DNA from: an uncultured Pseudomonadota bacterium
GTDB lineage: Bacteria > Pseudomonadota > Alphaproteobacteria > Rs-D84
Direction of reading: 5' to 3'
Assembly: GCA_949298405.1 (NCBI GenBank)
Contig: CASFWA010000002.1
Span: forward strand, 10,048-74,047
Length of the DNA stretch: 64,000 nt
A model generated the notes under the pieces. It was not told the origin of the DNA, searched no databases, and saw only the letters and a program-made list of their open reading frames with translations. Numbering within the stretch: the stretch's first letter is position 1; every line of letters begins with the position of its first letter. The position numbers were made by a program, and so were the translations under genes. Of this stretch, positions 1,899 to 18,991 are shown in pieces.

Positions 1899-1949
1899 TC
1901 CGGGAATCAGTATAAACTGAATTCACAGGATGTCAAAAAGGATTGCATG

Positions 1950-1980: not shown

Positions 1981-1986
1981 TTCTTA

Positions 1987-2184: not shown

Positions 2185-2293
2185 TTCATATCCTTTTGGT
2201 TCCGCGCAAGCACCATGCTCACACTATATAGATAGTGCGAAAACATATAAAATCAATTCGTTTTTCAATATTCAACACACAAAGCTATTATAA

Positions 2294-3118
2294 TCAGCTC
2301 ACTTTGTCTCTGGCACATAATTTTAATTTTGTTACCTTGCAACCATATGATAGGTCCAGCACATAAACATCCCTGAATACAGACTCAAATTTATGCTTTT
2401 GTAATTTATCGGATAAATGCACAAAACCGTTTTCGACAACGACCAACAAATCGCATTCATCGCAATTCTTTTTGTATTGTTCGAACTTCTTGTTCTTGCC
2501 GTCTATCGTCTTTTGCAGGTCTTCGAACGGGTTTTCAATACACATTCCCTGATTATTTACATGCACAGATGTATGCGGCGCATGCATTTTGCTAGCATTT
2601 ACAATAAACGTCTGCCCTTTTACATCAACCCACTTCTTTGTTATTCCCCATTTTGGAATGCCGGCTTCCTCCAGCGCAGATATCAATGCATCCTTAATTT
2701 CTTTGTCTGTGGCACTTAATTTATTAAATCCGGGGTTATAGCACCTGTCAAAAAAATCTTCCCTGGTCATACTGAATTTTCGCGGGTCTTGAATATCTAT
2801 TAGCAAGGTAAGCGCGATTCCCTGTTTCTTAAAGTGGCCGACTATCTTCTTGGCAATTTCTTCCAAACGCATCGTGGCTATGTTCTTGGCACTTTTATTT
2901 ACGAAATTAACAATCTCTAAACCTATTGTGGGCCTATTTGGAACCTTGAATATAAAATCCGGGCTTTCGCTGCTTATTTTTTTGGTTATACCGTTTTCCT
3001 GCATCCAGCGTTCACCAAGTTTATGGCGTGTAAATAACGCTAGATAAGTTGCCTCTGCGCCTTTTTGACCATCATCTTGAATTATAAATTGCCCGCCCTT
3101 GTGTACAACTTCTGTCAT
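2294..3118 (-). CDS. hypothetical protein (island cargo)
   Basis: 274-aa ORF that abuts the DUF4143 ATPase gene on the same strand. No recognisable motif. Confidence 0.45.
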   Translation of the reverse strand: MTEVVHKGGQFIIQDDGQKGAEATYLALFTRHKLGERWMQENGITKKISSESPDFIFKVPNRPTIGLEIVNFVNKSAKNIATMRLEEIAKKIVGHFKKQGIALTLLIDIQDPRKFSMTREDFFDRCYNPGFNKLSATDKEIKDALISALEEAGIPKWGITKKWVDVKGQTFIVNASKMHAPHTSVHVNNQGMCIENPFEDLQKTIDGKNKKFEQYKKNCDECDLLVVVENGFVHLSDKLQKHKFESVFRDVYVLDLSYGCKVTKLKLCARDKVS

Positions 3119-3129
3119 TGTGTATTGTT

Positions 3130-4356
3130 TTACAAATACGCCACGGGGATGACGTTTACATCGGCCGTTAATGGCAGGTGAGTTTGCGCATTACAAACAA
3201 CCGCACCTGGGCCACGTTGGGCATGCAAGACGTCTTCTATGACCCTAAAATTTTTTATGTCGCCAACATTCGGTGTCGTTGTTCGTTTGATTTCCACAGG
3301 ATACAATTTACCGTTTTCTTCAATCAAAACATCGATTTCCGCACCATGATTATCACGATAGTAATATATGTTCGGGTTGCGACCATTGTACCAATAGCTT
3401 TTAATTATTTCGGATACAACGTATGTTTCAAATATACTGCCCGCCATAGCCCCATTTGCAAGTGTTTCCGGTGTGTTCCACCCAGTCAAGAATGCGGCCA
3501 GCCCTGTATCAACGAAATATACCTTTGGAGCTTTGATAATACGTTTGGTAACGTTGCTGTAATACGGACGCAACAAGAACACCAAGCCCGACGCTTCCAA
3601 TACAGACAGCCATGATTTAATCGTTGGTGCGGTTACACCAATGTCACGGGCAATGTCACTGTAATTCATTTCCTGGCCTGTTCTGGCCGCCAAGACACGC
3701 ATAAACGACACAAATGCCATAGTATCCCCAACCGCACCAAAACTTTTAACATCGCGTTCGATATAGGTCTGCAGATATGATTCATAAAACGTATTCCACA
3801 TGTCGTCTGGTGCACCGTGCATTTTCGGATACGAACCACGCCATATCACATCATACACACGATTGATGTCCATTGGCTTGGATATTTTTGCCTTGGCATC
3901 AATATATTCCATTGTTGGCAAGAACGGTTGTGCCATTGGATTATTATTCTTTTCATCTTGGGAAAATCCGTCCAGATGCAGTATGCCGACACGTCCCGCC
4001 AAACTTTCTGATACATTTTTCATCAAATGAAACTGTTGCGAACCGGTCAGCCAGTACATACCAGGCTTGTTTTCTTGGTCTACAATCGCCTTGATATATG
4101 GAAACAGTTGCGGTGCATATTGAACTTCATCAATCAAAACAGGGGCCGGGAAACGTTGCAAAAACAGTTCTGGTTCCGTCTGGGCCAGACTTCTGTTCGC
4201 CAACGTATCCAACGAAACATAGGTTGCAGGCGTATTTGCAACATTTTGCAAAACCGTTGTCTTACCAACTTGACGCGGTCCCGTGACCATAATCACAGGG
4301 AAAAAGTTGCTGATTTTTTCTATACTCTGTTCCAAAGTTCTGTTTATGTATGCCAT
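3130..4356 (-). CDS. AAA+ ATPase of the DUF4143/COG1373 family
   Basis: 408 aa. Walker A VIMVTGPRQVGKTT and Walker B-like VLIDEVQ. Overall architecture matches the widespread ATPase-plus-DUF4143 family. A GGAGG RBS sits 5 nt upstream. Confidence 0.7.
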   Translation of the reverse strand: MAYINRTLEQSIEKISNFFPVIMVTGPRQVGKTTVLQNVANTPATYVSLDTLANRSLAQTEPELFLQRFPAPVLIDEVQYAPQLFPYIKAIVDQENKPGMYWLTGSQQFHLMKNVSESLAGRVGILHLDGFSQDEKNNNPMAQPFLPTMEYIDAKAKISKPMDINRVYDVIWRGSYPKMHGAPDDMWNTFYESYLQTYIERDVKSFGAVGDTMAFVSFMRVLAARTGQEMNYSDIARDIGVTAPTIKSWLSVLEASGLVFLLRPYYSNVTKRIIKAPKVYFVDTGLAAFLTGWNTPETLANGAMAGSIFETYVVSEIIKSYWYNGRNPNIYYYRDNHGAEIDVLIEENGKLYPVEIKRTTTPNVGDIKNFRVIEDVLHAQRGPGAVVCNAQTHLPLTADVNVIPVAYL

Positions 4357-4364
4357 AGCATCCT

Positions 4365-4401
4365 CCGGCGGATTTAAAGTTATACTTTAGAATATCAAAA
4401 G
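4365..4401. repeat. direct repeat copy 1 (about 36 bp) in the ATPase 5' leader
   Basis: CGGCGGATTTAAAGTTATACTTTAGAATATCAAAAG; repeated 60 bp downstream with about 28/36 identity. Confidence 0.6.
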
Positions 4402-4424
4402 TCAGACCCAATGTCAAATATTTT

Positions 4425-4461
4425 CGGCGGATTTAAAGTGACGCTTTAGATTATCGAAAAT
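4425..4461. repeat. direct repeat copy 2
   Basis: CGGCGGATTTAAAGTGACGCTTTAGATTATCGAAAA. The first 15 nt are identical to copy 1. Confidence 0.6.
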
Positions 4462-4471
4462 GCAGCCATAT

Positions 4472-5449
4472 TTAGCAAAAATCATCGAACACATCACCAC
4501 CTGTCCATTCATAACCGCGTTCTATGGTATAATATTTTTCTGCGCCTTCGTCTGTAATAAACGTTCTTATAGAGGTATGATAGAACATGTTAGATTTATA
4601 CTCTATTTTTGCTAACGCATAGCCCATACCACCACTGGCCATAACCACAATGGCTTTTCTATCCTTATCGAAATCTGCTTTTATAACTTCAGATTGATAA
4701 ACAGCATTTTTAGCAAACAGTTTGCCCTCGCTTATATTGTTCAAGTAATCTTGCAATGGTTCATCTGATACCACGGATGGACATAATGGAAATTCTGATG
4801 GAACTTTCCAGTTAACTTGCATTGCATTAGGTGTAAGCGATTGTTTTTCTATCGGCATATCTTCTTCCACTGTATCTTCTGGGCCCCACTGTTTATCATG
4901 ATACACCCACTCACCCAATTTACCATTGCCTGTCGGCACAGAATCTTCTTTGGCCCAACGTTCTAATTTTTCTTTACTGATTTTTGCTTCATCTGGCGAA
5001 ACTGTGCGCATCCAGTCAAAATTCTGGTCCACACTACCAGCTCTTAAAAGTGCAGGATTTTCCAAGAAGTTTTCAATACTGCCACAACATAATATTATAC
5101 GCTTTCTGGTTATTGGATTGTTCAGTGCGTTTTCCAGTCTAGTTGCCCAACGCAAGTTGTCTGGCCGATTATTACACTTATTTGTGTCCTTGTGGTCTAT
5201 TACATGCGTGGACGATGGCTTTGGTTCAAGAAAGGCCTCTGCAACAATCTGATGAACACGCACAGAATTGATATACATATATCCATTCGTTTCGTTTTTG
5301 GTTCCAAAGGTCCAAACTTCATCTAGTTTGCGTTTTATCTTGTTGGGCCGAGCATGCCGCATTACCGCACCATTATTACGCACAGAGTACCTTTCGTCCT
5401 TGAACACACATTCCTTTTCTTGGTCAAAAAAAGAGTCAACACTTATCAT
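4472..5449 (-). CDS. HNH homing-type endonuclease with NUMOD4-like N-terminal region
   Basis: 325 aa. RYSVRNNGAV resembles NUMOD4. HVIDHKDTNKCNNRPDNLRWATRLEN is an HNH_3 nuclease motif. The gene starts 3 nt after the integrase stop, in an operon. Confidence 0.6.
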   Translation of the reverse strand: MISVDSFFDQEKECVFKDERYSVRNNGAVMRHARPNKIKRKLDEVWTFGTKNETNGYMYINSVRVHQIVAEAFLEPKPSSTHVIDHKDTNKCNNRPDNLRWATRLENALNNPITRKRIILCCGSIENFLENPALLRAGSVDQNFDWMRTVSPDEAKISKEKLERWAKEDSVPTGNGKLGEWVYHDKQWGPEDTVEEDMPIEKQSLTPNAMQVNWKVPSEFPLCPSVVSDEPLQDYLNNISEGKLFAKNAVYQSEVIKADFDKDRKAIVVMASGGMGYALAKIEYKSNMFYHTSIRTFITDEGAEKYYTIERGYEWTGGDVFDDFC

Positions 5450-5451
5450 TA

Positions 5452-6639
5452 TTATCCCCTTATATCCTCTGGCACAAATTCCAACATTTTATCGGCGGCA
5501 CGTTGGATAGAATCACGCACAGGGTCCATTGTTAAACGGGCATATACCTGGGTTGCTGCGCTGGTTTTATCGCCCAGGGCCTTGCCCACAATATGTAAAC
5601 TGGCACCGGTTATGGCCTGGTAACTGCCGAATGTACGACGCAGGTCATGGAACCGCAGGTCTTCGATATTCGCACGTTTTAACAATGCATACCAGGGACG
5701 GTGAAAGTCCTCGACATGACCGCTTTTGCTGCCGGCACGACTTGAAAACACCCAGTCATCAGTCGCATAAGTGCGCATATCTTGCAATATTTCAAGTGCC
5801 TGCGATATTAATGGGATGCGTTGCGGGTCACCATTTTTAGAATCCGGGAACAGCACAAACCCTAGATTCAAATCAACATTTGACCAGCGCATGGACAGCA
5901 TATTTTGCCGACGCTGACCAATAAACAGCGATAACAGCACATAGTTTTTAAACGCCTCGTTCGGCTCTTCGGCCAGTGCTGCAAAGAAACGTGTTATTTC
6001 ATCTGGCTGCAGGAAACGTTCACGGGACTTTTCACGAAACATTTTTATCCCGACCGCAGGATTACCATGATGTGCCGGATACCCCCATTCTATGGCCTTG
6101 TTATACATGTGTTTTATCAATCCAAGTGTCCGGTTGGCGGTGTATAAACTTATCTTGCTGCGCAACCCCGAATGTATCCGTTCCAGGTCAACACGCGTTA
6201 TGCTTATCATTTTACGGTTGTGCAATTCGGGCAGGTAATTGCGAAACATTGATTCAACCTTGGCCTGTGATTTTTGCTTTGTATACACCAAAACGTGCCG
6301 TGGGTAATACTGAGTATCAAAGAACTGTTTTAATGTCATATCACGCAGGGCTTCGTTGCGTTCTTGGCCGGGGTCTGTTCCGTGGTCGGCAACGGTCCGC
6401 AATTCACGTGCTTTCATCCGGGCTTCGACCAATTTTGTAACACCAACACGACCAATTTTTACACGCTTTGGCACCCCCAGGAACTTGGTATAGAAATAGT
6501 ACGTTTTTGTCCCGCCATAGGTCACAATGATGCACAAACCCGGTTGTCCATTGTCATAATAAGTCATTGGACGCTTGTCGGTCGGAATTGGCAATTCGGC
6601 CAACGTTTTTTCTGTAAAATTTATATGGTTATTGGTCAT
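5452..6639 (-). CDS. int: tyrosine site-specific integrase (phage/P4-type)
   Basis: 395 aa. N-terminal arm-binding-like region. C-terminal catalytic HDLRRTF and a Tyr in ATQVYARLT. Lies adjacent to the tRNA-Asn fragment. Confidence 0.85.
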   Translation of the reverse strand: MTNNHINFTEKTLAELPIPTDKRPMTYYDNGQPGLCIIVTYGGTKTYYFYTKFLGVPKRVKIGRVGVTKLVEARMKARELRTVADHGTDPGQERNEALRDMTLKQFFDTQYYPRHVLVYTKQKSQAKVESMFRNYLPELHNRKMISITRVDLERIHSGLRSKISLYTANRTLGLIKHMYNKAIEWGYPAHHGNPAVGIKMFREKSRERFLQPDEITRFFAALAEEPNEAFKNYVLLSLFIGQRRQNMLSMRWSNVDLNLGFVLFPDSKNGDPQRIPLISQALEILQDMRTYATDDWVFSSRAGSKSGHVEDFHRPWYALLKRANIEDLRFHDLRRTFGSYQAITGASLHIVGKALGDKTSAATQVYARLTMDPVRDSIQRAADKMLEFVPEDIRG

Positions 6640-7294
6640 CGTTTATATCCATTGTTGCTATTTTTTCCCAATCAACCCCGTATTTGTCGACAATATCTTG
6701 CATATCTGCAGAAAGATAAAAACTACGCTCGCTACGAATGTCGGTCGGAAATCGAGATGGATTTTTCCGATCATCATGTTCTTGTTGCCAAACTTCAAAA
6801 TCAGAAACAAAAATCCCCCTTTGAACAAAAGTGTCCGCAATCGGATTTTCTTGTAACTTATATCTATCTATGTTGAAAGAGTTCCTTTCCTTTTCCGGTG
6901 TCGAATAATAACAAATAAAACTTGCCAAGTATTTTAACTCGTCTACATTCAAATGCTCGAGCATGTTAGCATACCTGGCGAACAAATTTGATTTACGGTC
7001 GGGTTCTTCCACTTTTCCCATCCCTGAAATTAATCGAGCCAACAAAATCAAATTTCTTTTTGCAACCCCCTCTTGAACGGAACGAGAAAACCTTGCCAAC
7101 ATGCTAAAAAAATCATCCCGATGGATGGCAGTTAGGTCTCCACTGCGAATGTTTGTTAACAACACCTCCCTAGCCATGTTTATGTTTTTCTGACGCCATG
7201 CATCATATACGTGCTGCATTGCGCCACCAACCACCGGCACAGCACCCAAAACACTATCAACTATCTGCGGTAATACAGCATTTTCTTTTTCCAT
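6629..7294 (-). CDS. hypothetical protein, first gene of the hyp-int-HNH operon
   Basis: 221 aa. Overlaps the integrase start by 11 nt. Confidence 0.45.
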   Translation of the reverse strand: MEKENAVLPQIVDSVLGAVPVVGGAMQHVYDAWRQKNINMAREVLLTNIRSGDLTAIHRDDFFSMLARFSRSVQEGVAKRNLILLARLISGMGKVEEPDRKSNLFARYANMLEHLNVDELKYLASFICYYSTPEKERNSFNIDRYKLQENPIADTFVQRGIFVSDFEVWQQEHDDRKNPSRFPTDIRSERSFYLSADMQDIVDKYGVDWEKIATMDINDDQ

Positions 7295-7499
7295 TTCAAT
7301 CTCTTTTTGCTACCAAGGTCCGTGTTGCAAATGCCCCAGTCCGTGAGACGTCCGTTTGTCTTTATTTGTTACCTATTTGCTACCAACGGCGTTTTTTGCT
7401 ACCAATTTCCATTAATCTTCATCAAGTATAACATAGCCTATAACCCGCAGAAAATCAAGGAAAATTAAACTTTATCAATTTCTATCAATCTTAATAAAA

Positions 7500-7549
7500 A
7501 CGGACTGTTAATCCGTATGTCACTGGTTCGAGTCCAGTTGCCCGAGCCA
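7500..7549 (+). other. 3' 50-nt fragment of tRNA-Asn(GTT) (anticodon arm to CCA); integration-site (att) copy at the island boundary
   Basis: ACGGA-CTGTTAA-TCCGT (anticodon GTT), variable ATGTC, T-arm ACTGG-TTCGAGT-CCAGT, acceptor TGCCCGA-G-CCA. No matching 5' acceptor/D-arm lies upstream, so it is not a complete tRNA. Confidence 0.75.
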
Positions 7550-7556
7550 AGAATTT

Positions 7557-7580
7557 CCGCAGATTTCTGCGGATTTTTTA
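7557..7580 (+). terminator. rho-independent terminator (native tRNA-Asn terminator)
   Basis: CCGCAGA-TT-TCTGCGG followed by ATTTTTTA. Confidence 0.7.
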
Positions 7581-7791
7581 TTGTCTGTCTTCTACCCCGT
7601 TTTTATGCAAAATTGGATGAAAATGGCTCTAAATTGCCGGAGGAGTAAAACAAAAACACATATTTGACACACAGTAATATATACCATTACTGCTGAAATT
7701 TTATATATAAATAATATTTTTATAGAATTGCAATTTTTATTATTTTTATCTACAATTAAGACCGAAAAGAAACTATAAATAGGATATCAGG

Positions 7792-8613
7792 ATGGCAGGA
7801 AAAACAATCCAAATTTATTTACCAAGCGGAAAACTTAAAGGTATAAAAAAAGCTTCTATTACAACAGAAAAACCAATCGTTTTTCAAGTTCCTCTTACAG
7901 AAGTTAGTAATAATATTGATAAACTAGATTTTAATGGTATTTATATTTTAGTTGATAGTATAACAACTAACAAACCTCAACTTTATATTGGTAAAGGGAA
8001 AGTCAAACATAGAATACAACAACATATAAAAAAGAAAAGCTTTTGGAATACGGTTTTTGCAGTTAAACTTGATAGCATTAATGGTTTTAGTGATACAGAT
8101 ATTTCATATCTTGAGTATTATTTTATAAAAAAAGCTAAAGGCTTAACCAATATTATAACAGAAGAAAATAAACAAATCCCACAGATTCCAAAATTACAAG
8201 ATGAAAAATTGGACGAATTAACGTGTTATATTGAAACAATTGAGTTTATATTATCAACCCTGGGCTTAAAATGTTTTCAAAATGAAGACGAAAATAATAC
8301 TTTCACATGCCAAGATAAATACGGAAGTTTTGGCCAAGGAAAATATAATTCAGATTCAGGGCTTCTATTATTAAAGGGCTCTAAATGTAAAATGGCATTA
8401 CATAAAGGAACCAAAAATTTACCTAAAAGAACGGATTTAATTAAAAAAGGAATTTTAAAAGAAAAGGATGGATTCTATATCTTAACAGAAGATACAACTT
8501 TCTCTTCTGTTTCATCCGCAGCTCAAATCGTATTGGCAAGACGAGCTAATGGATGGACCGAGTGGAAAAATAAAGAAGGAAAAACATTGGATGAATTGTA
8601 TAGAATAAAATAA
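7792..8613 (+). CDS. GIY-YIG nuclease with C-terminal DUF4357-like domain
   Basis: 273 aa. GIYILVDS...LYIGKG is the GIY-YIG core. The C-terminal half resembles DUF4357. Local GC is extremely low. Confidence 0.65.
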   Translation: MAGKTIQIYLPSGKLKGIKKASITTEKPIVFQVPLTEVSNNIDKLDFNGIYILVDSITTNKPQLYIGKGKVKHRIQQHIKKKSFWNTVFAVKLDSINGFSDTDISYLEYYFIKKAKGLTNIITEENKQIPQIPKLQDEKLDELTCYIETIEFILSTLGLKCFQNEDENNTFTCQDKYGSFGQGKYNSDSGLLLLKGSKCKMALHKGTKNLPKRTDLIKKGILKEKDGFYILTEDTTFSSVSSAAQIVLARRANGWTEWKNKEGKTLDELYRIK

Positions 8614-8696
8614 AACAACTTAAATAAAAGTAATAAAATCTTATGATTTTTGTTTAAAAATCAAAAGATACTAATTAATAAAAAGGATTTTATAAA

Positions 8697-9530
8697 TTGT
8701 TAAAAAAATATATCAGTATTTATATGACCCAAGATGCATATCGCTCTTTTCGTGCCATATGCCCTAGGAAACTATTTTCTAAATTGATAATTTCTAACAT
8801 TCAATATAGTAATGAAACGTGTCATAAAAAATATCGCAGAAATTTTCAGTTTATACTTTCTGTTCCAAATACAAGTATTGATTCTATATGGAGAATAATA
8901 AATTCAAACATCAATATAAAACAAGAGATTCAATCTGATTGGGAACCTAAAACTACTACCGCACCACAAGTTACAGACAGTATAAAAAAAGACATCCTGC
9001 CTATAACCCAACATACACTACACAAACAATCAGCGACAAAATCTGAACAAGTTGCTGTTAACAAAAAAACTTTTAAAACATCTGAACTTACACCTAAAAT
9101 GGTGGAAGACATTCTTGGAATAGATTACAACCTTTTGCTGGACTCTTACTTTTATTACAATTCTAAATATAGCAACTACTTTGATAGTTATCTAGACGAA
9201 TTATACAATATTAAGGATATATTGGAAAACAATTCCATGTATAAAGAATACAAGCTAGCTTTCATTACATATGCCATAATTATAGAAGAAGAAGATTATA
9301 TAAAGTCTCCTACATTATACGACCCAAATAATTACGATGGAAGTATACCTTGGAATATCTACCCTAAGTACACAACTTTTATTTCATATAATTTAAAAAC
9401 AGAAACTTTTGAAAAATATCCACGAGGTTGGATAAAAATATACGGTTCGCATTTTGATGATATCAAGACTCTATTCAATAGTAAAAATGAAGAAATATTG
9501 TCGGCATTTAAAAATGAAAAAACACGATAA
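8697..9530 (+). CDS. hypothetical protein (AT-rich orphan)
   Basis: 277 aa. TTG start with AAGGA 10 nt upstream; an alternative ATG is at 8724. No motif recognised. Confidence 0.4.
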   Translation: MLKKYISIYMTQDAYRSFRAICPRKLFSKLIISNIQYSNETCHKKYRRNFQFILSVPNTSIDSIWRIINSNINIKQEIQSDWEPKTTTAPQVTDSIKKDILPITQHTLHKQSATKSEQVAVNKKTFKTSELTPKMVEDILGIDYNLLLDSYFYYNSKYSNYFDSYLDELYNIKDILENNSMYKEYKLAFITYAIIIEEEDYIKSPTLYDPNNYDGSIPWNIYPKYTTFISYNLKTETFEKYPRGWIKIYGSHFDDIKTLFNSKNEEILSAFKNEKTR

Positions 9531-9577
9531 AACTACCTTATTTATATGTTGTTTCTAAATTGCCAAAGATATTTTAT

Positions 9578-10153
9578 CTATCTGTTCCTTTCAAATACTT
9601 GTATCTGTATCAACTTTTGATACACTTCGTTATCCACGGCACAGAAGTTTTCTGAATCTATTAAGTTCGCTAAACCTGGTAACCCTAAACTTTTATATAC
9701 TCCTGGTTTTATACATGTACTAAAACCTGTGTAAAACCACTTATTCGGAATAGTAAGTATTTTACCACTCTTTTTATCACGGCATACGATAGTTCCTGCA
9801 TAACCTGTTTGACCCAAAAACTTGATACTTGGTTTAGCGTATCTGGGATTTCGTATAACTTTACCTATATAAGGAACACCAGAATAAGGACTTATACTTA
9901 AAGATACAACCGCAACTAATTCATAACTTTTATTAAACCTAGCATCTTTTTTTAAAATATTTCTAAAATTATTGTAAATTATATTGTCTTCTTTGGATGC
10001 TGCAACGCCATTATTAAGACAACCCGTATCATAATCAAACCATTCAACAAATTGATAATTTGCACCTAATAATTCGTGCATTTTATTTTGTGTTAAAGTT
10101 TCTTTTATTATAGCCATTAAGTAATAAACTAGCACAAAGGAATCCTTTTTCAA
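9578..10153 (-). CDS. hypothetical protein (AT-rich orphan)
   Basis: 191-aa ORF convergent with the 8697 gene. Confidence 0.4.
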   Translation of the reverse strand: MKKDSFVLVYYLMAIIKETLTQNKMHELLGANYQFVEWFDYDTGCLNNGVAASKEDNIIYNNFRNILKKDARFNKSYELVAVVSLSISPYSGVPYIGKVIRNPRYAKPSIKFLGQTGYAGTIVCRDKKSGKILTIPNKWFYTGFSTCIKPGVYKSLGLPGLANLIDSENFCAVDNEVYQKLIQIQVFERNR

Positions 10154-10162
10154 TGAAATTAT

Positions 10163-10197
10163 AAAAGAATCAGCGGTGAAATTCCGCTGATTCTTTT
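10163..10197 (-). terminator. rho-independent terminator after the 10204-11199 gene
   Basis: AAAAGAATCAGCGG-TGAAATT-CCGCTGATTCTTTT, a perfect 14-bp stem. Confidence 0.7.
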
Positions 10198-10203
10198 ATA
10201 TTA

Positions 10204-11199
10204 CTAATTTAACTCTATCAACTCATATTTTGTCGTGCCTAACCCTATTGATTCTGCATACGGTAAAATATGTCGCCCCATCTGTCTGTCAATTCGTTCT
10301 TGTAATTTCTTTGCACCTGTGTCTTTAGACGCATATATCATATCTACAAACGCTTGGTCATTAGCAACTGGATCCGTTGATGCAACAATCCCCAAGTCAG
10401 ACATAACTGGATCCGTTTGATGCGCATCGCAATCACAATCAACTGACAAAAAGTTCATAACTGTTATATATACAATCTGCTTGCCCTGCGAAGCAAAATA
10501 ATCACTAACAGATTTTGCCGCCTCTGCCATTGATTCTATAAATGCCTGTTGTTCTGGTAAATTAGACCACAATATTTCTGGGTCTTCTGTGAACCCTGCT
10601 GAATGAATATAAGCCTTGCCATTTCTTGACGCTATACCAATAGATTGATTCTTTAAACTCGCACCAAAGCCGCCCATTGCATGTCCCTTGCCATGTGCTA
10701 AATTTAATATTGAATCATAATTATCCAAATGTGTCCCAACAAGGTTATATTTTAAATGCTTGCCATTATTAACTGGTATTTTCTTTTCGCCTTCTGCATC
10801 CATAATATCAACGTCCGCAAATTTTGTAAAACCGTGTTCTTCTGCAACCTTTAAATGGTCTTCTACTGTATTGCGTTTTCCAGCATATGCCGTATTACAC
10901 TCAAGAATAGTACCCTTTAATTTCTGAACAAGCGGTCCTATTAATTCAGCCTTTAAATAACCGCGAGAACCAGCCTCGCCAGTTGAAACTTTTACCCCGA
11001 CCCTGCCCTTTAATTCTACGCCAAGTGCGTCATATATTTTTATCAAATTTTCTGGTGTTATATCTTTTACATAATATACTTTTGCTGGTTCGTTTTTCAT
11101 TTCTTTCTCCGCGTTACTAAAACTATTATATATAAACCATATTAATGTTATACCTATTAAAATACTTATAAAAAGTATAAACAATTTTTTATAATTCAT
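10204..11199 (-). CDS. membrane-anchored hypothetical protein, possibly DUF362 family
   Basis: 331 aa with an N-terminal TM helix. Contains a VDCDCDAHQ Cys cluster. The family assignment is a recollection, not verified. Confidence 0.35.
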   Translation of the reverse strand: MNYKKLFILFISILIGITLIWFIYNSFSNAEKEMKNEPAKVYYVKDITPENLIKIYDALGVELKGRVGVKVSTGEAGSRGYLKAELIGPLVQKLKGTILECNTAYAGKRNTVEDHLKVAEEHGFTKFADVDIMDAEGEKKIPVNNGKHLKYNLVGTHLDNYDSILNLAHGKGHAMGGFGASLKNQSIGIASRNGKAYIHSAGFTEDPEILWSNLPEQQAFIESMAEAAKSVSDYFASQGKQIVYITVMNFLSVDCDCDAHQTDPVMSDLGIVASTDPVANDQAFVDMIYASKDTGAKKLQERIDRQMGRHILPYAESIGLGTTKYELIELN

Positions 11200-11269
11200 A
11201 TATTCTCCTTTTTAAGGAAGATTAGCACTATTTAAAACGAAAAGTTATAAACTTTTTATAAGAAATTTA

Positions 11270-12622
11270 TCAAAACCTTTGCATCATAGAAAATTCTATA
11301 CCCCATTTATCAAATTCACGTTGCCATATATTTGAATCACGGCGCATATAACTGAATGTGAAAGTCGGAACAAAATTCCATACCTCCAATTTACTATTTG
11401 AAATTGATACCGCATACCTCTGTGTTAAACTGCTTTCTGCAATTTGTTCAAACTTTCCGTCTTTTACAACCCAGCGCATATCATCATAATCCTGCAAATA
11501 TACAGATACATCAAAATACACATTAAACTGTGCTGGCAAATCTATCCCAAAACCTATTCCTAAACTTGGTCGCCAATTTGAATACACTCTATCCTTTGTA
11601 ACCTCTCTTGCAACTCCTAGTCGCAACATTACGTATTTTGAGGAATCAAACGAATGTATAAAGCGACTTGTAGCGTCATACGTTTGACCATCTAAAATCA
11701 ATCCGAAATCATCGTATGTATTATCACTAACAAGAAACGACAGTTGCCCAGATGTCTTACGTGTAAAATCATAGTTTATATTTAAACGCCCACCAGCAGA
11801 CCAATTATAAGGGTTCCAACCATACCACCGCCTGCTTGCCGTTGCAGCAAACCATACATCACCGTTTTCCCATACATACCTTGGTCCTGAACTTACAAAC
11901 AATAACAAGTCATCAAAATCGTGCTTATTATAGATATTTGCATAAATATTCGCATCCGATTTCCAACGCCACTGTTCTGACAATCGAAACTCGTAATCAC
12001 CACCCAAAACGAAGTTAAACCCAACTGCTTTTTCTGGCTCAGGTAATTGTCTACATAATGGTCCAAAAATCGTATCAACACATTCTTCACCACCAACAGA
12101 AGTGTTAATATTATTATCTGGTGCCATGCCTAAGTTTAAATACACATTCCAGTTTTTGTTCTGACGAATTACGTATCTCATATAATTCATCACATTTTTT
12201 ATATCGTCTGGTAAGTCTTTACCCGCCATGGCACGACGTAACTGATAATCCGCCTGGCGCCATTGTTTTGTATTCATATAGCAAATTGCTAATTCAAATC
12301 GAACTCTTGCTAAATCTGGATATTTATCAAGAATCTTGCGATATATCTTTATCGCTGTTTCATAATCTTTGTTTGCAGTAGCAACACGCCCACGTAAGAA
12401 ATTTTGCTCAATATTTAATGCAACGCTTTCAAATTCTGGTAGGTTATCTAATATAGATTCTGCCTGTTCTATTTCACCCTTGTCTATCAACGCACCAGTT
12501 ATTTTTAGTGCATCAACTGCAGACATAGTAATTTCTTTCGAATTATCTTTCACCTTATGCGATTCTGCCTGGCATAAGCCAGGCAGAACGATAATGATAA
12601 AAGCAAACAATAATCTCTTCAC
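11270..12622 (-). CDS. Slam-like (surface lipoprotein assembly modulator, DUF560) outer-membrane protein
   Basis: 450 aa. Signal peptide, then N-terminal TPR-like repeats, then a C-terminal region of alternating hydrophobic beta-strand pattern ending in a terminal Phe (…MMQRF). Flanked by two lipoprotein genes with TbpB/fHbp-like C-terminal barrels. Confidence 0.6.
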   Translation of the reverse strand: MKRLLFAFIIIVLPGLCQAESHKVKDNSKEITMSAVDALKITGALIDKGEIEQAESILDNLPEFESVALNIEQNFLRGRVATANKDYETAIKIYRKILDKYPDLARVRFELAICYMNTKQWRQADYQLRRAMAGKDLPDDIKNVMNYMRYVIRQNKNWNVYLNLGMAPDNNINTSVGGEECVDTIFGPLCRQLPEPEKAVGFNFVLGGDYEFRLSEQWRWKSDANIYANIYNKHDFDDLLLFVSSGPRYVWENGDVWFAATASRRWYGWNPYNWSAGGRLNINYDFTRKTSGQLSFLVSDNTYDDFGLILDGQTYDATSRFIHSFDSSKYVMLRLGVAREVTKDRVYSNWRPSLGIGFGIDLPAQFNVYFDVSVYLQDYDDMRWVVKDGKFEQIAESSLTQRYAVSISNSKLEVWNFVPTFTFSYMRRDSNIWQREFDKWGIEFSMMQRF

Positions 12623-13530
12623 TATTTCACACCAAAAGCAACATCCATTTTAATACCAGATGTATGCTCTTTAAAATTCACAGTTCCTACTGCTTCTGTC
12701 GGCACACCAATTTCTGTTTTAGGTCCATAATAATTAACTGACATATTTGCACCAGAAGTTATAAATTTATTACCCCCGACATCAAATTTCACTAAATCTT
12801 CTTTGTTCTTATAATTACTAAATTCTATTGTACCTGCGGTATCATCTTTTACTGTGACATCATACCAGTTATCAAATGTAGCGCCAAGTGTACTAACACC
12901 CGTTTCTTTATCAAAGTTTAATACAGCATCACCATCTAATTTTACAAATTCTGAATCTGCACTTGCACCACCAACCGCACGCCCAGAAAATTGCACGTCT
13001 TTTACAATATCCGCAACATCTATCCTTTGTGTTGCATTACCACTAACAAAAACTTTATCTTCTATACCAGCACGATTTGCCTCATTTTCATTTGTAATTT
13101 CATACGTACCAAAGTCCGAATAAGACAAACCTAATTCTTTTCCCAAAGAAGAATAATCCAAACTTTCATCCGCAAATTCTATACGCACGCTAGAAATTCT
13201 ATTTCCACGCGAAGGTCTGGTTCCCCTATCAGATTGCACAATATTTTCTGCATCATTTCCCCTGTCTGTACTCGGCACATAATTTACATCATCACCACGT
13301 TCATCAGTTGGGTCACGTTCAGATGTATCGCCCCTGTCTTCACTTGGTTCTGGATTTGTTTCACCCCGATTGTCACTTGGTAAATAATTTGAACTATTTC
13401 CACGACCTGATGTCGGTATATGCTTAGTACAACCTTCGGCAGAATCAAGGCATGCTGGGGAATATCCACCGCCACCACCACCACAAGCAGCCAAAATAAC
13501 AGTCAGCATTAAACAAGTTATTTTTTTCAT
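12622..13530 (-). CDS. surface lipoprotein (SLP) with TbpB/fHbp-like C-terminal handle-barrel domain
   Basis: 302 aa. Lipobox ILAAC followed by a Gly run. The C-terminal domain ends ...DVAFGVK (FGAK-type ending) and is paralogous to the 13688-14932 product. Confidence 0.65.
   Translation of the reverse strand: MKKITCLMLTVILAACGGGGGGYSPACLDSAEGCTKHIPTSGRGNSSNYLPSDNRGETNPEPSEDRGDTSERDPTDERGDDVNYVPSTDRGNDAENIVQSDRGTRPSRGNRISSVRIEFADESLDYSSLGKELGLSYSDFGTYEITNENEANRAGIEDKVFVSGNATQRIDVADIVKDVQFSGRAVGGASADSEFVKLDGDAVLNFDKETGVSTLGATFDNWYDVTVKDDTAGTIEFSNYKNKEDLVKFDVGGNKFITSGANMSVNYYGPKTEIGVPTEAVGTVNFKEHTSGIKMDVAFGVK
12863..12897. repeat. inverted repeat core A (35 bp identical, within ~90 bp of ~80% identity), inside SLP gene 1
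   Basis: TACCAGTTATCAAATGTAGCGCCAAGTGTACTAAC; its exact reverse complement is at 14648-14682. Confidence 0.85.
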
Positions 13531-13687
13531 TTTCTTCCCCTTGCCTTTACATAATGATTATACCCTATATCTTTTTTATAAACAAGAACTTGTTTTTTAC
13601 GCCTGATGACTTTATTCCCTTGAAAAAGAAATCAGTCCTATACTATACTCAAATATATAAATAGTCCTGTTAGTTAGGAGGATATCC

Positions 13688-14932
13688 ATGAAAAAATTTG
13701 CTTTCTTATTTATTGTGAATGCTTTGGCTGCTTGTAGTTTAAGTAATAGCAATGTTGACGGTTATTCTGCATACCCTGGCAACAGGAATCAATATAATCC
13801 TGGTTTAGACCTACCTTATAAAAATACTGCACAGAATAGCAATAAAGAAATTACAGGAATGGTCTCAAGTTCTTATGACCAGTTAAATAGATTTATAGCA
13901 TACAGGTTATCTGGTTATACCAACTACCCTATTAGCAATTATCAAGAAATTGCAAATTTAGCTGTATGGCTGACTTCCGATGATAGAACTGCATCAGATA
14001 TAAAAGATAAGTTTTATGAGAACTCTACCTTATTACACAATGCAATGTATGTAATTAACAAAAGTTTAGCAAGTTGCGTTAAATTTGTATCTTCTTATTC
14101 TGGCGAAGATGTGGGTAATTGTTTTGTAAAATGGCGCGCAGATAACGCGGTCACTTTTGATAAAGCAGCGCAATCTATTCGTGAAAATGCCGACTTTATA
14201 AATATACAGTCCGCGGAATTTTCTACAAACGATGATATAGTATTAAAGTTCGTTATTGATGACGGCGAAGAAAATAATGGCCCTGGTAAAATAACTGCTA
14301 TAAAAGTCGCAGACCAACAATATAACCGTATTGAAAATACTAATACATTTGAAAATGAAGAATCTATTTTAACTTATAATTCTCTTGGTAAAGAGTTGGG
14401 ACTTTCTTATTCTGATTTCGGAACCTACAAAGTAGTAAACAAAATCAATAACGAAATTTTAACTGATAATACGCCTTTTGCAGGTGGTTATTCCGCAAAA
14501 GAAATTACAGATATTGCACAAAATATCGAATTTACAGGCAAGGCCATCGGCACCGTTTCAAAAATGGCAGAAGATGGCGAGCAAAAGAAACTAGAAAAAA
14601 TTGATATTGCTGGAAATGCTGCGCTAAACTTTGACCCAGAGACGGGCGTTAGTACACTTGGCGCTACATTTGATAACTGGTACGATGTCATAGTAAAAAA
14701 TGATTCTGCGGGTACAATAGAATTTAGTAATTATAAGAACAATGCTAACGAATATGACATGCAGGTATCTGGTGATATGATAGAAGATAAAATAACTGCA
14801 AGCGGTGCAAATATGGATGTAAATTATTATGGTCAATTTCCAGAAAATAAAATACCAACCGAGGCATCTGGATTAGTTCAATACAAAGACGCAAATGGTA
14901 TAAAGTTAGACATGGCATTTGGCGCGAAGTAA
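13688..14932 (+). CDS. surface lipoprotein (SLP) paralog with TbpB/fHbp-like C-terminal domain
   Basis: 414 aa. Lipobox ALAAC. Shares LGKELGLSYSDFGTY, ETGVSTLGATFDNWYDV, AGTIEFSNYKN and C-terminal ...DMAFGAK with the divergent 12622-13530 gene. A strong AGGAGG RBS is present. Confidence 0.65.
   Translation: MKKFAFLFIVNALAACSLSNSNVDGYSAYPGNRNQYNPGLDLPYKNTAQNSNKEITGMVSSSYDQLNRFIAYRLSGYTNYPISNYQEIANLAVWLTSDDRTASDIKDKFYENSTLLHNAMYVINKSLASCVKFVSSYSGEDVGNCFVKWRADNAVTFDKAAQSIRENADFINIQSAEFSTNDDIVLKFVIDDGEENNGPGKITAIKVADQQYNRIENTNTFENEESILTYNSLGKELGLSYSDFGTYKVVNKINNEILTDNTPFAGGYSAKEITDIAQNIEFTGKAIGTVSKMAEDGEQKKLEKIDIAGNAALNFDPETGVSTLGATFDNWYDVIVKNDSAGTIEFSNYKNNANEYDMQVSGDMIEDKITASGANMDVNYYGQFPENKIPTEASGLVQYKDANGIKLDMAFGAK
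14648..14682. repeat. inverted repeat core B (reverse complement of 12863-12897), inside SLP gene 2
   Basis: GTTAGTACACTTGGCGCTACATTTGATAACTGGTA. Confidence 0.85.
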
Positions 14933-16730: not shown

Positions 16731-17858
16731 CTACTTTGCTTTATAGTTATTAATAATTGCCTGAACCAACTGCATTTCTGTGAAATCGGCAGCGTCATAT
16801 TCTCTGACCTTATCGCTAACATTCGGTAAATGATGTACAGAATACAAATCTTTTATTCTTGCTGATGATATATGCGGTTTAAAAATTCTAAAATCTGTAT
16901 ATATTAAATCCATAGGACGATTGGCAGCAGTTAATAATACAGATAACCCAGACGCTAAACCTATGATTCCAGCAGACCGCTCTGCCAATGCAAATATTTC
17001 TGCCATATTTGTATCAAATGATACAGAATCTGAAAAAATATTGTTAATATCATTTACAAAAACATCATACCCTATTCTTTTAAACTCTTTTATCAGCAAA
17101 TGCCAAAAAGCATTAGACATTCCAGATAAAGAATTTGCACCAGGTAAAATAATAACGAATGGGTGCTTAAATTTATCTGCAAGTTTTCTATCTATTTTTA
17201 ATGCAACAGACTTATCAATTTTAGGTTTTTGCATTACAGATTTTTTAGTTAAATCAAAATCTTTGCATATATAATCATAAAAATTTGCCAGACCTGTTTC
17301 TTCATATATTCTGTTAAGATTTTCTGCGATTTTATATGTAGGACAAAATAACTTTCTGCCCTTATATTCAACACTTTCACAATCCAAGGCATCTTGAAGG
17401 TTATTTTTATCTATTTCAATGTATTTAATATCAATGCCTCTTGGTAAAAACATCTTATAAAAAGGAATATATTTTTTCTGCCAAACTATCAATAAAGGCT
17501 TTCTGGTGCCGCTGGCTTTTACCCACGATTTCAAATGGGTCAAGTATATATAACTTTCCCCGATATTATGTCGAATTATATAAACCCCATCATATTTTTT
17601 ACTGATTTGGTTAAATAACTTATTAAGAATTTTTCGTCTAAGGTTTTCCCTATATACCGGCAGGCAGCAAACTTTACTTATAGCATAATGATTTTTTATG
17701 CGCCTTTTATAAAGTCTAAGCCCTAACAGCCTGAAATCTTGTGTACCACGTGACGACTTTTTAAAACGCAATACGCCGCATAATATCGAATAAGTCTTTT
17801 CATTACCCCAATCATGATTATATGATGCGGAATTATAAATAATATTTTTAATCATCAC
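16731..17858 (-). CDS. putative glycosyltransferase (GT9-like C-terminal half)
   Basis: 375 aa. The C-terminal VIILPGANS...AGIIGLASGLSVLLTAANRPMDLIY resembles the heptosyltransferase (GT9) donor-binding region. Confidence 0.35.
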   Translation of the reverse strand: MMIKNIIYNSASYNHDWGNEKTYSILCGVLRFKKSSRGTQDFRLLGLRLYKRRIKNHYAISKVCCLPVYRENLRRKILNKLFNQISKKYDGVYIIRHNIGESYIYLTHLKSWVKASGTRKPLLIVWQKKYIPFYKMFLPRGIDIKYIEIDKNNLQDALDCESVEYKGRKLFCPTYKIAENLNRIYEETGLANFYDYICKDFDLTKKSVMQKPKIDKSVALKIDRKLADKFKHPFVIILPGANSLSGMSNAFWHLLIKEFKRIGYDVFVNDINNIFSDSVSFDTNMAEIFALAERSAGIIGLASGLSVLLTAANRPMDLIYTDFRIFKPHISSARIKDLYSVHHLPNVSDKVREYDAADFTEMQLVQAIINNYKAK

Positions 17859-17869
17859 TTCATATACTC

Positions 17870-18991
17870 TTAATTCTTATATTTCTGGTATACCCTTTCA
17901 GAAATCAAATCTCTTTCCCGTGCGATACCTAAAATATCATTCTCAAAATCGTAAGTTGTGCTGTAAAACTCGTTTAAAAAATCAGACGCAGCATTATTAT
18001 CTAAACCTATATCTATCCTTACACAATCTTTATAAACAGGTATATGTCGCCATACCTTTTCATCGTATAACATATCAAGAACAGGCAAATACAAAACACC
18101 CTTGTGCCATTTCAAAACAAATGCCCAGTGTCTTGAAAGCGCAATATCTGGCATGTGAATTACCATGGAATTATCTATATAAAATGTTTTTAAATTTAAC
18201 TGCTCTGTATCCCTTAGAAAAGTAAATACCCAATCAACATTGAAGTTAAACTCGTCTACATATTTTGTTGAATACTTTTCAATTAAATACTCGTTATAAC
18301 GCCAACCTATATTTTTCTTTACTACATCTAAACATTTCTGAGGATTTCTAACATACACAACCCCAAAAGACCAATGTACACCAAAAGATTTTGATACAAA
18401 CATATCGAAGTTAAAGCAATCTAAATCATTTTCTTCCGCATAAAATTCGGCTTTTTTCAGTGCTTCTGCTATTAATTCTGGCTTGGTCAAAATCATTATA
18501 TCGTCTGCATCAATATTATAAGTCCTTTTATAGTTATGTCTTGCAGCATGAACGAATGGGGTTAACATAGAATACGCAATTCTATGCCATAACTTCTGCC
18601 TTTCAACTTCATGCAATAATAATGGAACTTCTTTTTTTAATGTTTTCCTGTCACTTTTTATAAACGCGAAATCTTCGTTATAAAAGAAGCACGGTTTCTT
18701 AAAAATGCCTTCTTTCATTTTTTTATTGTCGCATACAAAATAGATAAAAGCGTCCATTCTGGCAATTATGTCCATCCAATGCTGAATACAATCAAAACTG
18801 GTTGTATGAACACGATGAACTTTTAAATAAAAAACCCGCTGTCCAGGTTTAGGCTTATGCCTTCTGCAACGTTCTATTTTCAATTTACCGTTTTGGTGTG
18901 TGTACTGAAAAACAGGAATTCCTAAAAGATAGAATTTTCTTATTTTTTCCCCATTTACTAATCTTACTTTTACTTTTTTTACAATTTTCAT
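17870..18991 (-). CDS. hypothetical protein within the polysaccharide cluster
   Basis: 373-aa ORF on the same strand as, and tightly packed with, its neighbours. Confidence 0.45.
   Translation of the reverse strand: MKIVKKVKVRLVNGEKIRKFYLLGIPVFQYTHQNGKLKIERCRRHKPKPGQRVFYLKVHRVHTTSFDCIQHWMDIIARMDAFIYFVCDNKKMKEGIFKKPCFFYNEDFAFIKSDRKTLKKEVPLLLHEVERQKLWHRIAYSMLTPFVHAARHNYKRTYNIDADDIMILTKPELIAEALKKAEFYAEENDLDCFNFDMFVSKSFGVHWSFGVVYVRNPQKCLDVVKKNIGWRYNEYLIEKYSTKYVDEFNFNVDWVFTFLRDTEQLNLKTFYIDNSMVIHMPDIALSRHWAFVLKWHKGVLYLPVLDMLYDEKVWRHIPVYKDCVRIDIGLDNNAASDFLNEFYSTTYDFENDILGIARERDLISERVYQKYKN

What the first reader, a model, noticed from the sequence alone, without database searches (positions are those of the whole stretch)
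12863..14682. A near-perfect inverted repeat inside the two SLP genes could allow inversion-mediated domain shuffling
Because the paralogous SLP genes are divergent, their shared C-domain coding sequence forms an inverted repeat. The core is 35 bp of exact identity (12863-12897 vs 14648-14682) within about 90 bp of ~80% identity. The ORF track shows the same antisense peptide (MTSYQLSNVAPSVLTPVS) in both places. Homologous recombination between these arms would invert about 1.75 kb, which contains both promoters and both variable N-terminal halves. That would swap which N-terminal domain is fused to which C-terminal barrel, a plausible antigenic or functional variation switch. The (GGT)n tract encoding the Gly run after the lipobox (about 13470-13490) is a further candidate for length variation.
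Basis: inference. Interest (0 to 1): 0.55.

Follow-up and report, generated by a model that had tools for sequence, protein, structure and literature searches.

The report
Gene-conversion patch between paired lipoprotein genes

Summary
The inverted repeat is real and stronger than described. The arms are 12803-12934 and 14611-14742, 132 nt at 88% identity, with exact runs of 35 and 32 bp. It is the only long inverted repeat in the 64 kb. It lies inside the shared TbpB-like beta-barrel of two divergently transcribed lipoprotein genes, SLP-A and SLP-B, next to a Slam translocon gene. The organism is an uncultured gut alphaproteobacterium (relatives named Candidatus Enterousia).

The high identity is not just protein conservation. 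Synonymous sites are homogenised only in this block. Paralogues within this species are closer there (89-96% nt) than orthologues in the next lineage (68-72%). In another strain the SLP-B block is nucleotide-identical to this strain's SLP-A allele. That is short-tract gene conversion between paralogues, on top of mosaic allele exchange.

The proposed inversion was not found. All 20 same-species contigs compared at the DNA level are colinear. None of 32 distinct alleles (about 100 contig occurrences) is the predicted chimera. No dedicated invertase is linked. An inversion would swap only the last ~60 residues, not whole barrels. A low-frequency inversion within a population cannot be excluded without reads. 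The Gly-run length polymorphism (5 or 6 Gly, in frame) is real. Verdict: an ordinary, well-documented case of concerted evolution.

The parts
11270..12622 (-). Slam (surface lipoprotein assembly modulator): TPR N-domain plus DUF560/SlipAM barrel. Its GTG start overlaps the SLP-A stop codon by 1 nt, so the two genes form an operon.
   Evidence: Pfam PF04575 E=5e-28 and PF24575 TPR_Slam; overlap read from the sequence.
12622..13530 (-). SLP-A, a 302-aa lipoprotein. It has a lipobox (LAAC), a Gly6 run, a linker of ~11-aa P-S-x-D-R-G repeats, and a C-terminal TbpB-like domain.
   Evidence: ORF and translation; alignment to relatives; 50% identity to the SLP-B C-domain.
12625..12802 (-). SLP-A 'tail' (aa 244-302). 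This is the segment an inversion would exchange. It is the most strain-divergent part of the locus and occurs as two allele classes, A1 and A2.
   Evidence: 63 differences in 400 nt against L032; tail classes A1/A2.
12803..12934 (.). Left arm of the inverted repeat (SLP-A aa 199-243). It is a gene-conversion tract.
12863..12897 (.). 35-bp exact core, left copy.
13465..13482 (-). Gly-run codons (GGT)3-GGC-GGT-GGA directly after the lipidated Cys16. One 3-nt unit is missing in some strains.
   Evidence: Sequence; 3-bp deletion in L004 and L010; Gly5 versus Gly6 alleles.
13531..13687 (.). 157-bp divergent intergenic region. It contains one promoter-like site for SLP-B at 13620-13649 (+).
   Evidence: consensus match only; the number of sites found was not above the shuffled expectation.
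13688..14932 (+). SLP-B, a 414-aa lipoprotein. It has a lipobox (LAAC), a disordered linker, an alpha-helical domain (aa 47-168), a beta handle (176-232) and a barrel (242-413).
   Evidence: AlphaFold2 model with pLDDT 84.8; Foldseek top hits are TbpB, LbpB, fHbp, NHBA and HphA.
14611..14742 (.). Right arm of the inverted repeat (SLP-B aa 308-352; middle strands of the barrel).
14648..14682 (.). 35-bp exact core, right copy. It is created in this strain by three synonymous changes (14644, 14662, 14665) to the SLP-A state.
14743..14929 (+). SLP-B tail (aa 353-414): a loop plus the last strands of the barrel. It is 95% or more identical in all 15 B-type alleles.

Best explanation
The repeat is a patch of concerted evolution. 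SLP-A and SLP-B are old paralogues encoding Slam-dependent, TbpB-like surface lipoproteins, and they are transcribed divergently. Their most conserved barrel segment (GVSTLGATFDNWYD...GTIEFSNYKN) kept enough nucleotide similarity to seed homologous pairing. Short-tract, non-reciprocal gene conversion between the two copies then repeatedly homogenised about 100-130 nt, presumably through RecA-dependent break repair (inferred). The same conserved block also acts as a junction for allelic mosaicism: block alleles and tail alleles re-assort between strains. Crossover resolution, which would invert the intervening ~1.7 kb, is geometrically possible but is not observed. The locus is therefore not a programmed inversion switch.

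Shown: the tract, its synonymous-site homogenisation, donor-allele identity across paralogues, strain polymorphism, and the absence of the inverted form in assemblies.

Inferred: the enzymology (RecA, double-strand-break repair) and the surface display of the proteins.
For: (1) Synonymous sites. Inside the block, 29 of 36 codons for identical residues are identical. Outside it the figure is 29 of 66. The expectation from the window's codon usage is 16.5, giving z=4.45 and p=2e-5. The equally conserved motif SLGKELGLSYSDFGTY has only 5 of 17 identical codons (expected 7.5), so the paralogues are old and protein constraint alone does not give nucleotide identity.

(2) Paralogues are closer than orthologues. 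Block nucleotide identity is 89% for win_A/win_B and 96% for win_A/L014_B. It is 68% for win_A/L018_A and 72% for win_B/L018_B. Paralogue pairs in four other lineages are 60-68% identical.

(3) Donor identity. In strain L014/L032 the SLP-B block is nucleotide-identical to the window's SLP-A allele over about 95 nt (aa VTVKDDTAGT). That strain's own SLP-A carries another allele, IIVKDDAAGT.

(4) In the window, three linked synonymous changes (14644, 14662, 14665) switch SLP-B to the SLP-A state and so create the 35-mer. Most strains lack them.

(5) Another lineage has a 53-bp perfect inverted repeat between a different paralogue pair at a different conserved motif, and none at this block. Such patches are therefore lineage-specific.

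(6) Allelic recombination. All four combinations of block allele and tail allele exist in SLP-A. Strain divergence peaks in the SLP-A tail.

(7) No inversion. All 20 same-species contigs compared at the DNA level are colinear (gene order). None of 32 alleles is chimeric. Tails follow gene type across lineages: A-A 67-69%, B-B 73%, A-B 56%.

(8) Precedent. The inversely oriented tufA/tufB genes of Salmonella evolve in concert by gene conversion at about 1e-8 per generation when mismatch repair is active, even with 1185 nt of near-identity (PMC5485169).
Against: Assemblies are consensus sequences. A minor inverted subpopulation would be invisible, and look-ups by exact protein favour the known form; the cluster enumeration only partly offsets this. 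Directionality and mechanism of conversion are inferred from patterns. The organism is uncultured, so nothing about RecA dependence can be tested. Some B-type proteins in distant lineages carry A-like ('LVKL') tails. Tail exchange between the two types has therefore happened at some time, and an ancient inversion cannot be ruled out as its cause.
Confidence: 0.8

Rival explanations
1. RecA-dependent or recombinase-dependent crossover between the arms reversibly inverts ~1.7 kb within clonal populations. This produces hybrid lipoproteins and switches which gene is co-transcribed with Slam, giving a variation switch.
For: The geometry is right. The arms are inverted, in frame and in the same register, so both products would stay open. 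The arms demonstrably interact through conversion. Exact runs of 35 and 32 bp are about the minimum usable by RecA pathways (own knowledge). A tyrosine integrase lies about 6 kb away at 5452-6639.
Against: No inverted arrangement appears in 20 same-species contigs or 37 related GTDB loci. None of 32 alleles is chimeric. Both genes are complete with their own start and lipobox; there is no silent cassette and no single movable promoter. The integrase is the Arm-binding, P4-like type and sits in a strain-variable island. That island is absent from L014/L032, which keep the repeat and its conversions. The arms are only 83-88% identical and vary between strains. Even 1.2-kb near-identical tuf repeats recombine at only ~1e-8 per generation. 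The swap would exchange only ~60 homologous residues.
Confidence: 0.1
2. Pure purifying selection. The block is simply the most constrained part of the barrel, and codon bias makes the DNA alike. No recombination between the copies is involved.
For: The block is the most conserved protein segment of the whole family, with invariant W, Y, F and N residues.
Against: Codon identity exceeds the codon-usage expectation (p=2e-5), while an equally conserved motif does not. Orthologues with the same amino acids are only 68-72% identical in nucleotides. The L014 SLP-B block carries the window's SLP-A allele, including its amino-acid differences.
Confidence: 0.05
3. A nucleotide-level functional element (a recombinase site, an RNA structure or a regulatory site) is embedded in both genes and conserved as DNA.
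For: Synonymous sites are conserved between the two copies.
Against: The conservation is confined to one species. The block is 60-72% identical in nucleotides in other lineages and other paralogue pairs. Promoter-like matches in the arms are no more frequent than in shuffled sequence. The antisense ORFs diverge after 18 aa.
Confidence: 0.03
4. Assembly artefact: the repeat or the arrangement results from mis-assembly of strain mixtures.
For: All data are metagenome assemblies. Several strains coexist in these sample series.
Against: The same arrangement comes from independent samples, assemblers and projects: ENA scaffolds, megahit k87 contigs, SPAdes NODE contigs, Logan and NCBI MAGs. One contig matches the window 100% over 2.5 kb.
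Confidence: 0.02

Closest known systems
Concerted evolution of inversely oriented tufA/tufB in Salmonella by gene conversion (PMC5485169; a link to inversions is recalled from Hughes 2000 and was not read here)
   Same: Two paralogues in inverse orientation on one chromosome. Non-reciprocal, contiguous conversion tracts keep them alike. The same pairing could in principle resolve as an inversion.
   Different: The tuf copies are ~99% identical over 1185 nt and 762 kb apart. Here only ~130 nt of two otherwise ~53%-identical genes is homogenised, the copies are 1.7 kb apart, and the genes encode variable surface proteins.
Modular/mosaic architecture and natural chimeras of Neisseria fHbp, another Slam-dependent SLP (PMC9079162, citing Beernink and Granoff 2009)
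   Same: The same protein fold class. Variable segments are joined at conserved blocks, and alleles re-assort by homologous recombination.
   Different: fHbp mosaicism comes from horizontal exchange between alleles of a single locus. Here a second, paralogous copy in the same locus also acts as donor.
hsdS 'epigenetic invertons' and shufflons: inverted repeats inside paralogous genes that shuffle domains by inversion (PMC7672463)
   Same: Inverted repeats within oppositely oriented paralogous coding sequences. An inversion would recombine gene halves in frame.
   Different: Those systems have a dedicated co-localised invertase, usually one expressed gene plus partial silent copies, and both orientations are found in clonal populations and assemblies. 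None of these features is found here.
RecA-dependent inversion of the sap (S-layer protein) locus in Campylobacter fetus (own knowledge; no paper found in the library)
   Same: Homologous, not site-specific, recombination between conserved parts of oppositely oriented surface-protein paralogues.
   Different: The sap homologues share ~600 bp of identical 5' sequence and a single promoter that moves between cassettes. Here the shared stretch is short, imperfect and 3'-proximal, and both genes have their own upstream region.
Slam-adjacent TbpB-like surface lipoproteins (PMC5449769, PMC9090332)
   Same: Lipobox, Gly-rich linker after the Cys, handle plus beta-barrel, gene adjacent to or overlapping Slam, and a conserved C-terminus.
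   Different: No Pfam or sequence signature of TbpB, fHbp or HpuA. SLP-B carries an alpha-helical N-terminal domain with no PDB fold match. The hosts are uncultured gut Alphaproteobacteria rather than Neisseria, Pasteurellaceae or Moraxella.

Membership tests
Slam-dependent TbpB-like surface lipoprotein | N-terminal signal peptide with lipobox Cys | tested here: met
   SLP-A ...VILAAC16, SLP-B ...NALAAC16. The Cys is invariant in both alignments.
Slam-dependent TbpB-like surface lipoprotein | Gene adjacent to a Slam (TPR + DUF560) gene | tested here: met
   Slam lies at 11270-12622 with PF04575/PF24575. The SLP-A stop overlaps the Slam start. The linkage is conserved in relatives.
Slam-dependent TbpB-like surface lipoprotein | C-terminal handle plus eight-stranded beta-barrel of TbpB-like fold | tested here: met
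   AlphaFold2 model with pLDDT 84.8. Foldseek PDB hits to TbpB C-lobe, LbpB, fHbp, NHBA and HphA, with E down to 2e-6 and probability 1.00.
Slam-dependent TbpB-like surface lipoprotein | Sequence-family signature (Pfam TbpB_B_D, fHbp_C or HpuA) | tested here: not met
   No Pfam hit even at E<=10. Membership is at the level of fold and gene context only.
Slam-dependent TbpB-like surface lipoprotein | Slam-dependent surface display | not testable with these tools
   Needs a translocation assay in E. coli as in PMC5449769.
Programmed DNA inversion system (inverton / shufflon / hsdS-type) | Inverted repeats bounding an invertible segment | tested here: met
   132-nt arms at 88% identity, 1676 nt apart.
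Programmed DNA inversion system (inverton / shufflon / hsdS-type) | Dedicated site-specific invertase linked to the locus | tested here: not met
   The 19 ORFs of 150 aa or more flanking the two SLP genes across 2294-25385, on their inferred coding strands, were scanned. The only recombinase is a P4-like Arm-binding integrase at 5452-6639. It lies in a strain-variable island absent from L014/L032, which retain the repeat.
Programmed DNA inversion system (inverton / shufflon / hsdS-type) | Both orientations present among isolates or assemblies | tested here: not met
   All 20 same-species contigs are colinear. None of 32 alleles is chimeric. The read-level test was not possible.
Programmed DNA inversion system (inverton / shufflon / hsdS-type) | One expression site plus silent or partial cassettes, or a single movable promoter | tested here: not met
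   Both genes are full-length with their own ATG, signal peptide and upstream region.
Inter-paralogue gene conversion (concerted evolution) | Discrete tract where paralogues are more alike than orthologues | tested here: met
   Block identity is 89-96% within the species against 68-72% for orthologues. The flanks are ~50-56% identical.
Inter-paralogue gene conversion (concerted evolution) | Homogenised synonymous sites beyond the codon-usage expectation | tested here: met
   29 of 36 observed against 16.5 expected, p=2e-5. The control motif has 5 of 17.
Inter-paralogue gene conversion (concerted evolution) | Polymorphic tracts whose variant state equals the other copy | tested here: met
   Positions 14644, 14662 and 14665. 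The L014 SLP-B block equals the window's SLP-A allele.
Inter-paralogue gene conversion (concerted evolution) | Dependence on the homologous recombination machinery | not testable with these tools
   The organism is uncultured.
Simple-sequence-repeat phase variation (Gly tract) | Repeat-length polymorphism between strains | tested here: met
   Gly5 in P0066, P0067, P0069 and P0074, Gly6 in the other A-type alleles, on different allele backgrounds. In another species P0025 has Gly6 and P0026 has Gly5.
Simple-sequence-repeat phase variation (Gly tract) | Length change switches expression on or off (frameshift or promoter spacing) | tested here: not met
   The unit is 3 nt, in frame, with only three perfect GGT units. 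It changes linker length by one Gly.

The most novel reading that the evidence does not exclude
Within single populations the arms also resolve as crossovers at low frequency. This would produce minority cells in which the 1.7-kb segment is inverted. SLP-B's N-terminal 352 residues would then be fused to SLP-A's last 59 residues and placed in the operon with Slam, and the reciprocal fusion would form on the other side. It would be a recombinase-independent, homology-driven variation mechanism for Slam-dependent surface lipoproteins in gut Alphaproteobacteria.
Probability: 0.1. Interest if true: 0.5.

Novelty: new member of a known kind. Interest (0 to 1): 0.3.

Why it matters
The locus gives a clean natural example of micro-scale concerted evolution between paralogous surface-protein genes. 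A ~130-nt tract is homogenised inside otherwise saturated paralogues, and donor and recipient alleles can still be identified across strains. It also shows that Slam-linked, TbpB-fold lipoproteins form a small mosaic gene family in uncultured gut Alphaproteobacteria (Candidatus Enterousia relatives), outside the classical pathogens. For the scan, the lesson is that an inverted repeat inside divergent paralogues is not in itself evidence of an inversion switch.

Tried and rejected
(1) Pfam at permissive thresholds on both SLPs gave no family. The fold had to be established by AlphaFold2 and Foldseek.

(2) Fold search of the SLP-B N-terminal helical domain alone found no PDB match below E=0.1, so its ligand remains unknown.

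(3) I looked for an ancient fixed inversion by asking whether the tail next to Slam is conserved regardless of N-domain type. L031 (B->Slam) has a B-type tail, and tails group by gene type in the window, L018 and L026 lineages. That scenario was rejected. Some distant B-type proteins do have A-like tails, but 60-aa tails are too short to decide between conversion and inversion.

(4) I considered a junction-specific DNA pattern scan of the JGI metagenome collection for the inverted configuration and did not run it. None of this species' proteins has a JGI source, so a negative result would be uninformative. The protein-level enumeration covers a larger collection.

(5) A literature search for Campylobacter fetus sap inversion found nothing in the held library, so that comparison rests on my own knowledge.

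(6) The promoter and terminator scan found sites at the shuffled-sequence rate (13 against 10.5) and no terminators. It was not used as evidence.
Full report
**Observation**

The window carries, on the minus strand, a Slam gene (11270-12622; Pfam SlipAM E=5e-28 and TPR_Slam). Immediately upstream of it lies a 302-aa lipoprotein gene, SLP-A (12622-13530), whose stop codon overlaps the Slam start by one base. Across a 157-bp intergenic region, a 414-aa lipoprotein gene, SLP-B (13688-14932), is transcribed divergently on the plus strand.

It has no chance expectation: 0 matches in 100 shuffles. It spans 132 nt at 88% (12803-12934 / 14611-14742) and includes a second exact run of 32 bp. It is the only inverted repeat of 30 nt or more in the 64 kb.

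**What the genes are**

Neither SLP matches any Pfam family, even at E<=10. Both have a lipobox (LAAC16). An AlphaFold2 model of SLP-B (pLDDT 84.8) shows four parts:
- a disordered linker
- a helical domain (aa 47-168)
- a beta handle (176-232)
- a barrel (242-413)

Foldseek against the PDB returns TbpB C-lobes, LbpB, fHbp, NHBA and HphA with probability 1.00 and E down to 2e-6. These are the known Slam-dependent surface lipoproteins (PMC5449769). The genes are therefore TbpB-fold, Slam-linked lipoproteins, a class defined here by fold and gene context rather than by sequence family.

The family is small, about 50 clusters. It occurs only in uncultured gut Alphaproteobacteria, some of them named Candidatus Enterousia.

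**Where the arms lie**

The two proteins align over SLP-A aa 110-302 and SLP-B aa 213-414 at 50% identity. The arms correspond to SLP-A aa 199-243 and SLP-B aa 308-352. That is the middle strands of the barrel, not the domain boundary.

An inversion between the arms would keep both frames open. It would exchange only the last 59-62 residues (a loop and the final strands). It would also change which gene is in the operon with Slam. It would not re-pair N-terminal domains with whole barrels.

**Why the DNA is so alike**

Within the block, 29 of 36 codons for identical residues are themselves identical. In the rest of the aligned C-domain the figure is 29 of 66. From the window's own codon usage, 16.5 identical codons are expected in the block (z=4.45, p=2e-5). 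The equally conserved motif SLGKELGLSYSDFGTY has only 5 of 17 (expected 7.5). The paralogues are therefore old, and protein constraint does not explain the nucleotide identity.

| Comparison, block only | Nucleotide identity |
|---|---|
| win_A vs win_B (paralogues, this strain) | 89% |
| win_A vs L014_B (paralogues, across strains) | 96% |
| win_A vs L018_A (orthologues) | 68% |
| win_B vs L018_B (orthologues) | 72% |
| Paralogue pairs in four other lineages | 60-68% |

In strain L014/L032 (94.6% genome-level identity), the SLP-B block is identical to the window's SLP-A allele over about 95 nt. This includes its amino-acid states (VTVKDDTAGT). That strain's own SLP-A carries a different allele, IIVKDDAAGT.

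In the window itself, three linked synonymous changes (14644, 14662, 14665) put SLP-B into the SLP-A state and so create the 35-mer. Most strains lack them. Across 20 same-species contigs the longest exact run varies from 22 to 35 bp.

A sister lineage has no homogenisation at this block. It does have a 53-bp perfect inverted repeat between a different paralogue pair at the SLGKELGLSYSDFG motif.

Together these results are the signature of recurrent, short-tract, non-reciprocal gene conversion seeded at conserved motifs. The precedent is the inversely oriented tuf genes of Salmonella (PMC5485169).

**Allelic mosaicism**

SLP-A tails fall into two classes, A1 and A2, about 68% identical to each other. 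All four combinations of block allele and tail allele occur. Divergence between the window and L032 peaks in the SLP-A tail, with 63 differences in 400 nt, and in the intergenic and signal-peptide region. This resembles the modular, chimeric alleles of fHbp (PMC9079162).

**Test of the inversion model**

- All 20 same-species contigs compared at the DNA level are colinear with the window, Slam<-A|B->. They come from several projects and assemblers (gene order).
- Exact-protein look-ups favour the known form, so I enumerated the complete 90% clusters in the 15-billion-protein collection. There are 15 B-type and 17 A-type distinct alleles, about 100 contig occurrences. Every B-type allele keeps the B tail at 95% or more. 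Every A-type allele keeps an A1 or A2 tail at 97% or more. None is the predicted chimera.
- No separate cluster of intermediate identity exists: nothing lies between 96% and 62%.
- Among 37 GTDB loci and other related contigs, the arrangements seen are Slam<-A|B->, A<-|B->, A->B->Slam and B->Slam. The arrangement the inversion would produce (Slam<-B'|A'->, the B-derived gene beside Slam and the A-derived gene divergent) does not occur.
- Tails group by gene type across lineages.
- No invertase is linked to the locus. The only recombinase within ~10 kb is a P4-like, Arm-binding integrase (5452-6639). It lies in a region with no counterpart in L032, where synteny ends exactly at the Slam stop. 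L014/L032 lack this region and still show the repeat and its conversions.
- Known coding-sequence invertons have a dedicated invertase, and both orientations show up in their assemblies (PMC7672463).
- The arms are imperfect: 83-88% identical with 22-35-bp exact runs. Near-identical 1.2-kb tuf repeats recombine at about 1e-8 per generation when mismatch repair is active. A high-frequency switch is therefore mechanistically unlikely. This last step is inference.

**Gly tract**

The run is (GGT)3-GGC-GGT-GGA (13465-13482). A one-unit deletion occurs in L004 and L010. Gly5 alleles occur on three different allele backgrounds, and also in another species. Length variation is therefore real. It is in frame and changes the post-Cys linker by one residue. 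It is not an on/off switch.

**Verdict**

The arms do recombine, but the detectable outcome is gene conversion plus allelic mosaicism, not inversion. The finding is a new member of a known kind: concerted evolution between paralogous surface-protein genes, and mosaic Slam-type lipoproteins.

The residual novel possibility is a low-frequency, homology-driven inversion within populations. It can only be settled with read-level or long-read data, or by reconstituting the cloned locus.

Noticed in passing
window 1-11271 (integrase 5452-6639 -, HNH 4472-5449 -, AAA_14/DUF4143 3130-4356 -, DUF4357 7792-8613 +, DUF362 10204-11199 -): Everything to the left of the Slam stop codon has no counterpart in the same-species MAG L032/L014, which instead has TetR, flavodoxin and peptidase genes there. 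The region carries a P4-like Arm-binding tyrosine integrase and restriction-associated genes. It is probably a strain-variable integrated island abutting the Slam locus.
   Followed up: partly
window 13826-14191 (SLP-B aa 47-168): SLP-B has a confidently modelled alpha-helical N-terminal domain (pLDDT ~90) ahead of the TbpB-like handle and barrel. It has no PDB fold match below E=0.1. Known Slam substrates have beta-rich handles or clamps, so this may be a new ligand-binding module.
   Followed up: partly
window 13200-13440 (SLP-A aa ~40-110): The SLP-A linker consists of ~11-aa P-S-x-D-R-G-like repeats (direct DNA repeats 13324-13348 / 13357-13381). The number of repeats differs among relatives, whose lengths range from 276 to 335 aa; compare P0020 with P0021.
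   Followed up: no
L018 5685-5737 and 6822-6874 (same in L034): A sister lineage with four SLP paralogues (Slam<-A|B-> <-B2 <-A2) has a 53-bp perfect inverted repeat between the convergent genes B and B2 at the SLGKELGLSYSDFG motif. This is an independent conversion patch at a different site.
   Followed up: partly
L030 5001-5972 (P0014) versus L022 5001-6251 (P0007): P0014 combines an A-type leader (Cys-Gly run, DRG repeats) with a handle and barrel 69% identical to the B-type P0007 (block 91% nt). It is only 41% identical to the A-type P0024. This looks like a natural N-terminal swap or whole-C-domain conversion in another lineage.
   Followed up: partly
window 12472-12871 and 13472-13671: Divergence from the same-species MAG L032 peaks in the SLP-A tail (63 differences in 400 nt) and in the divergent promoter and signal-peptide region (32 in 200 nt). 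The background is about 3-10 per 200 nt. A second divergent stretch lies at 17072-18071 in two unannotated genes.
   Followed up: no
L034 (OZ007020.1): The sister species has a circular long-read MAG chromosome of only 958,618 bp, so these gut Alphaproteobacteria appear to have small genomes.
   Followed up: no
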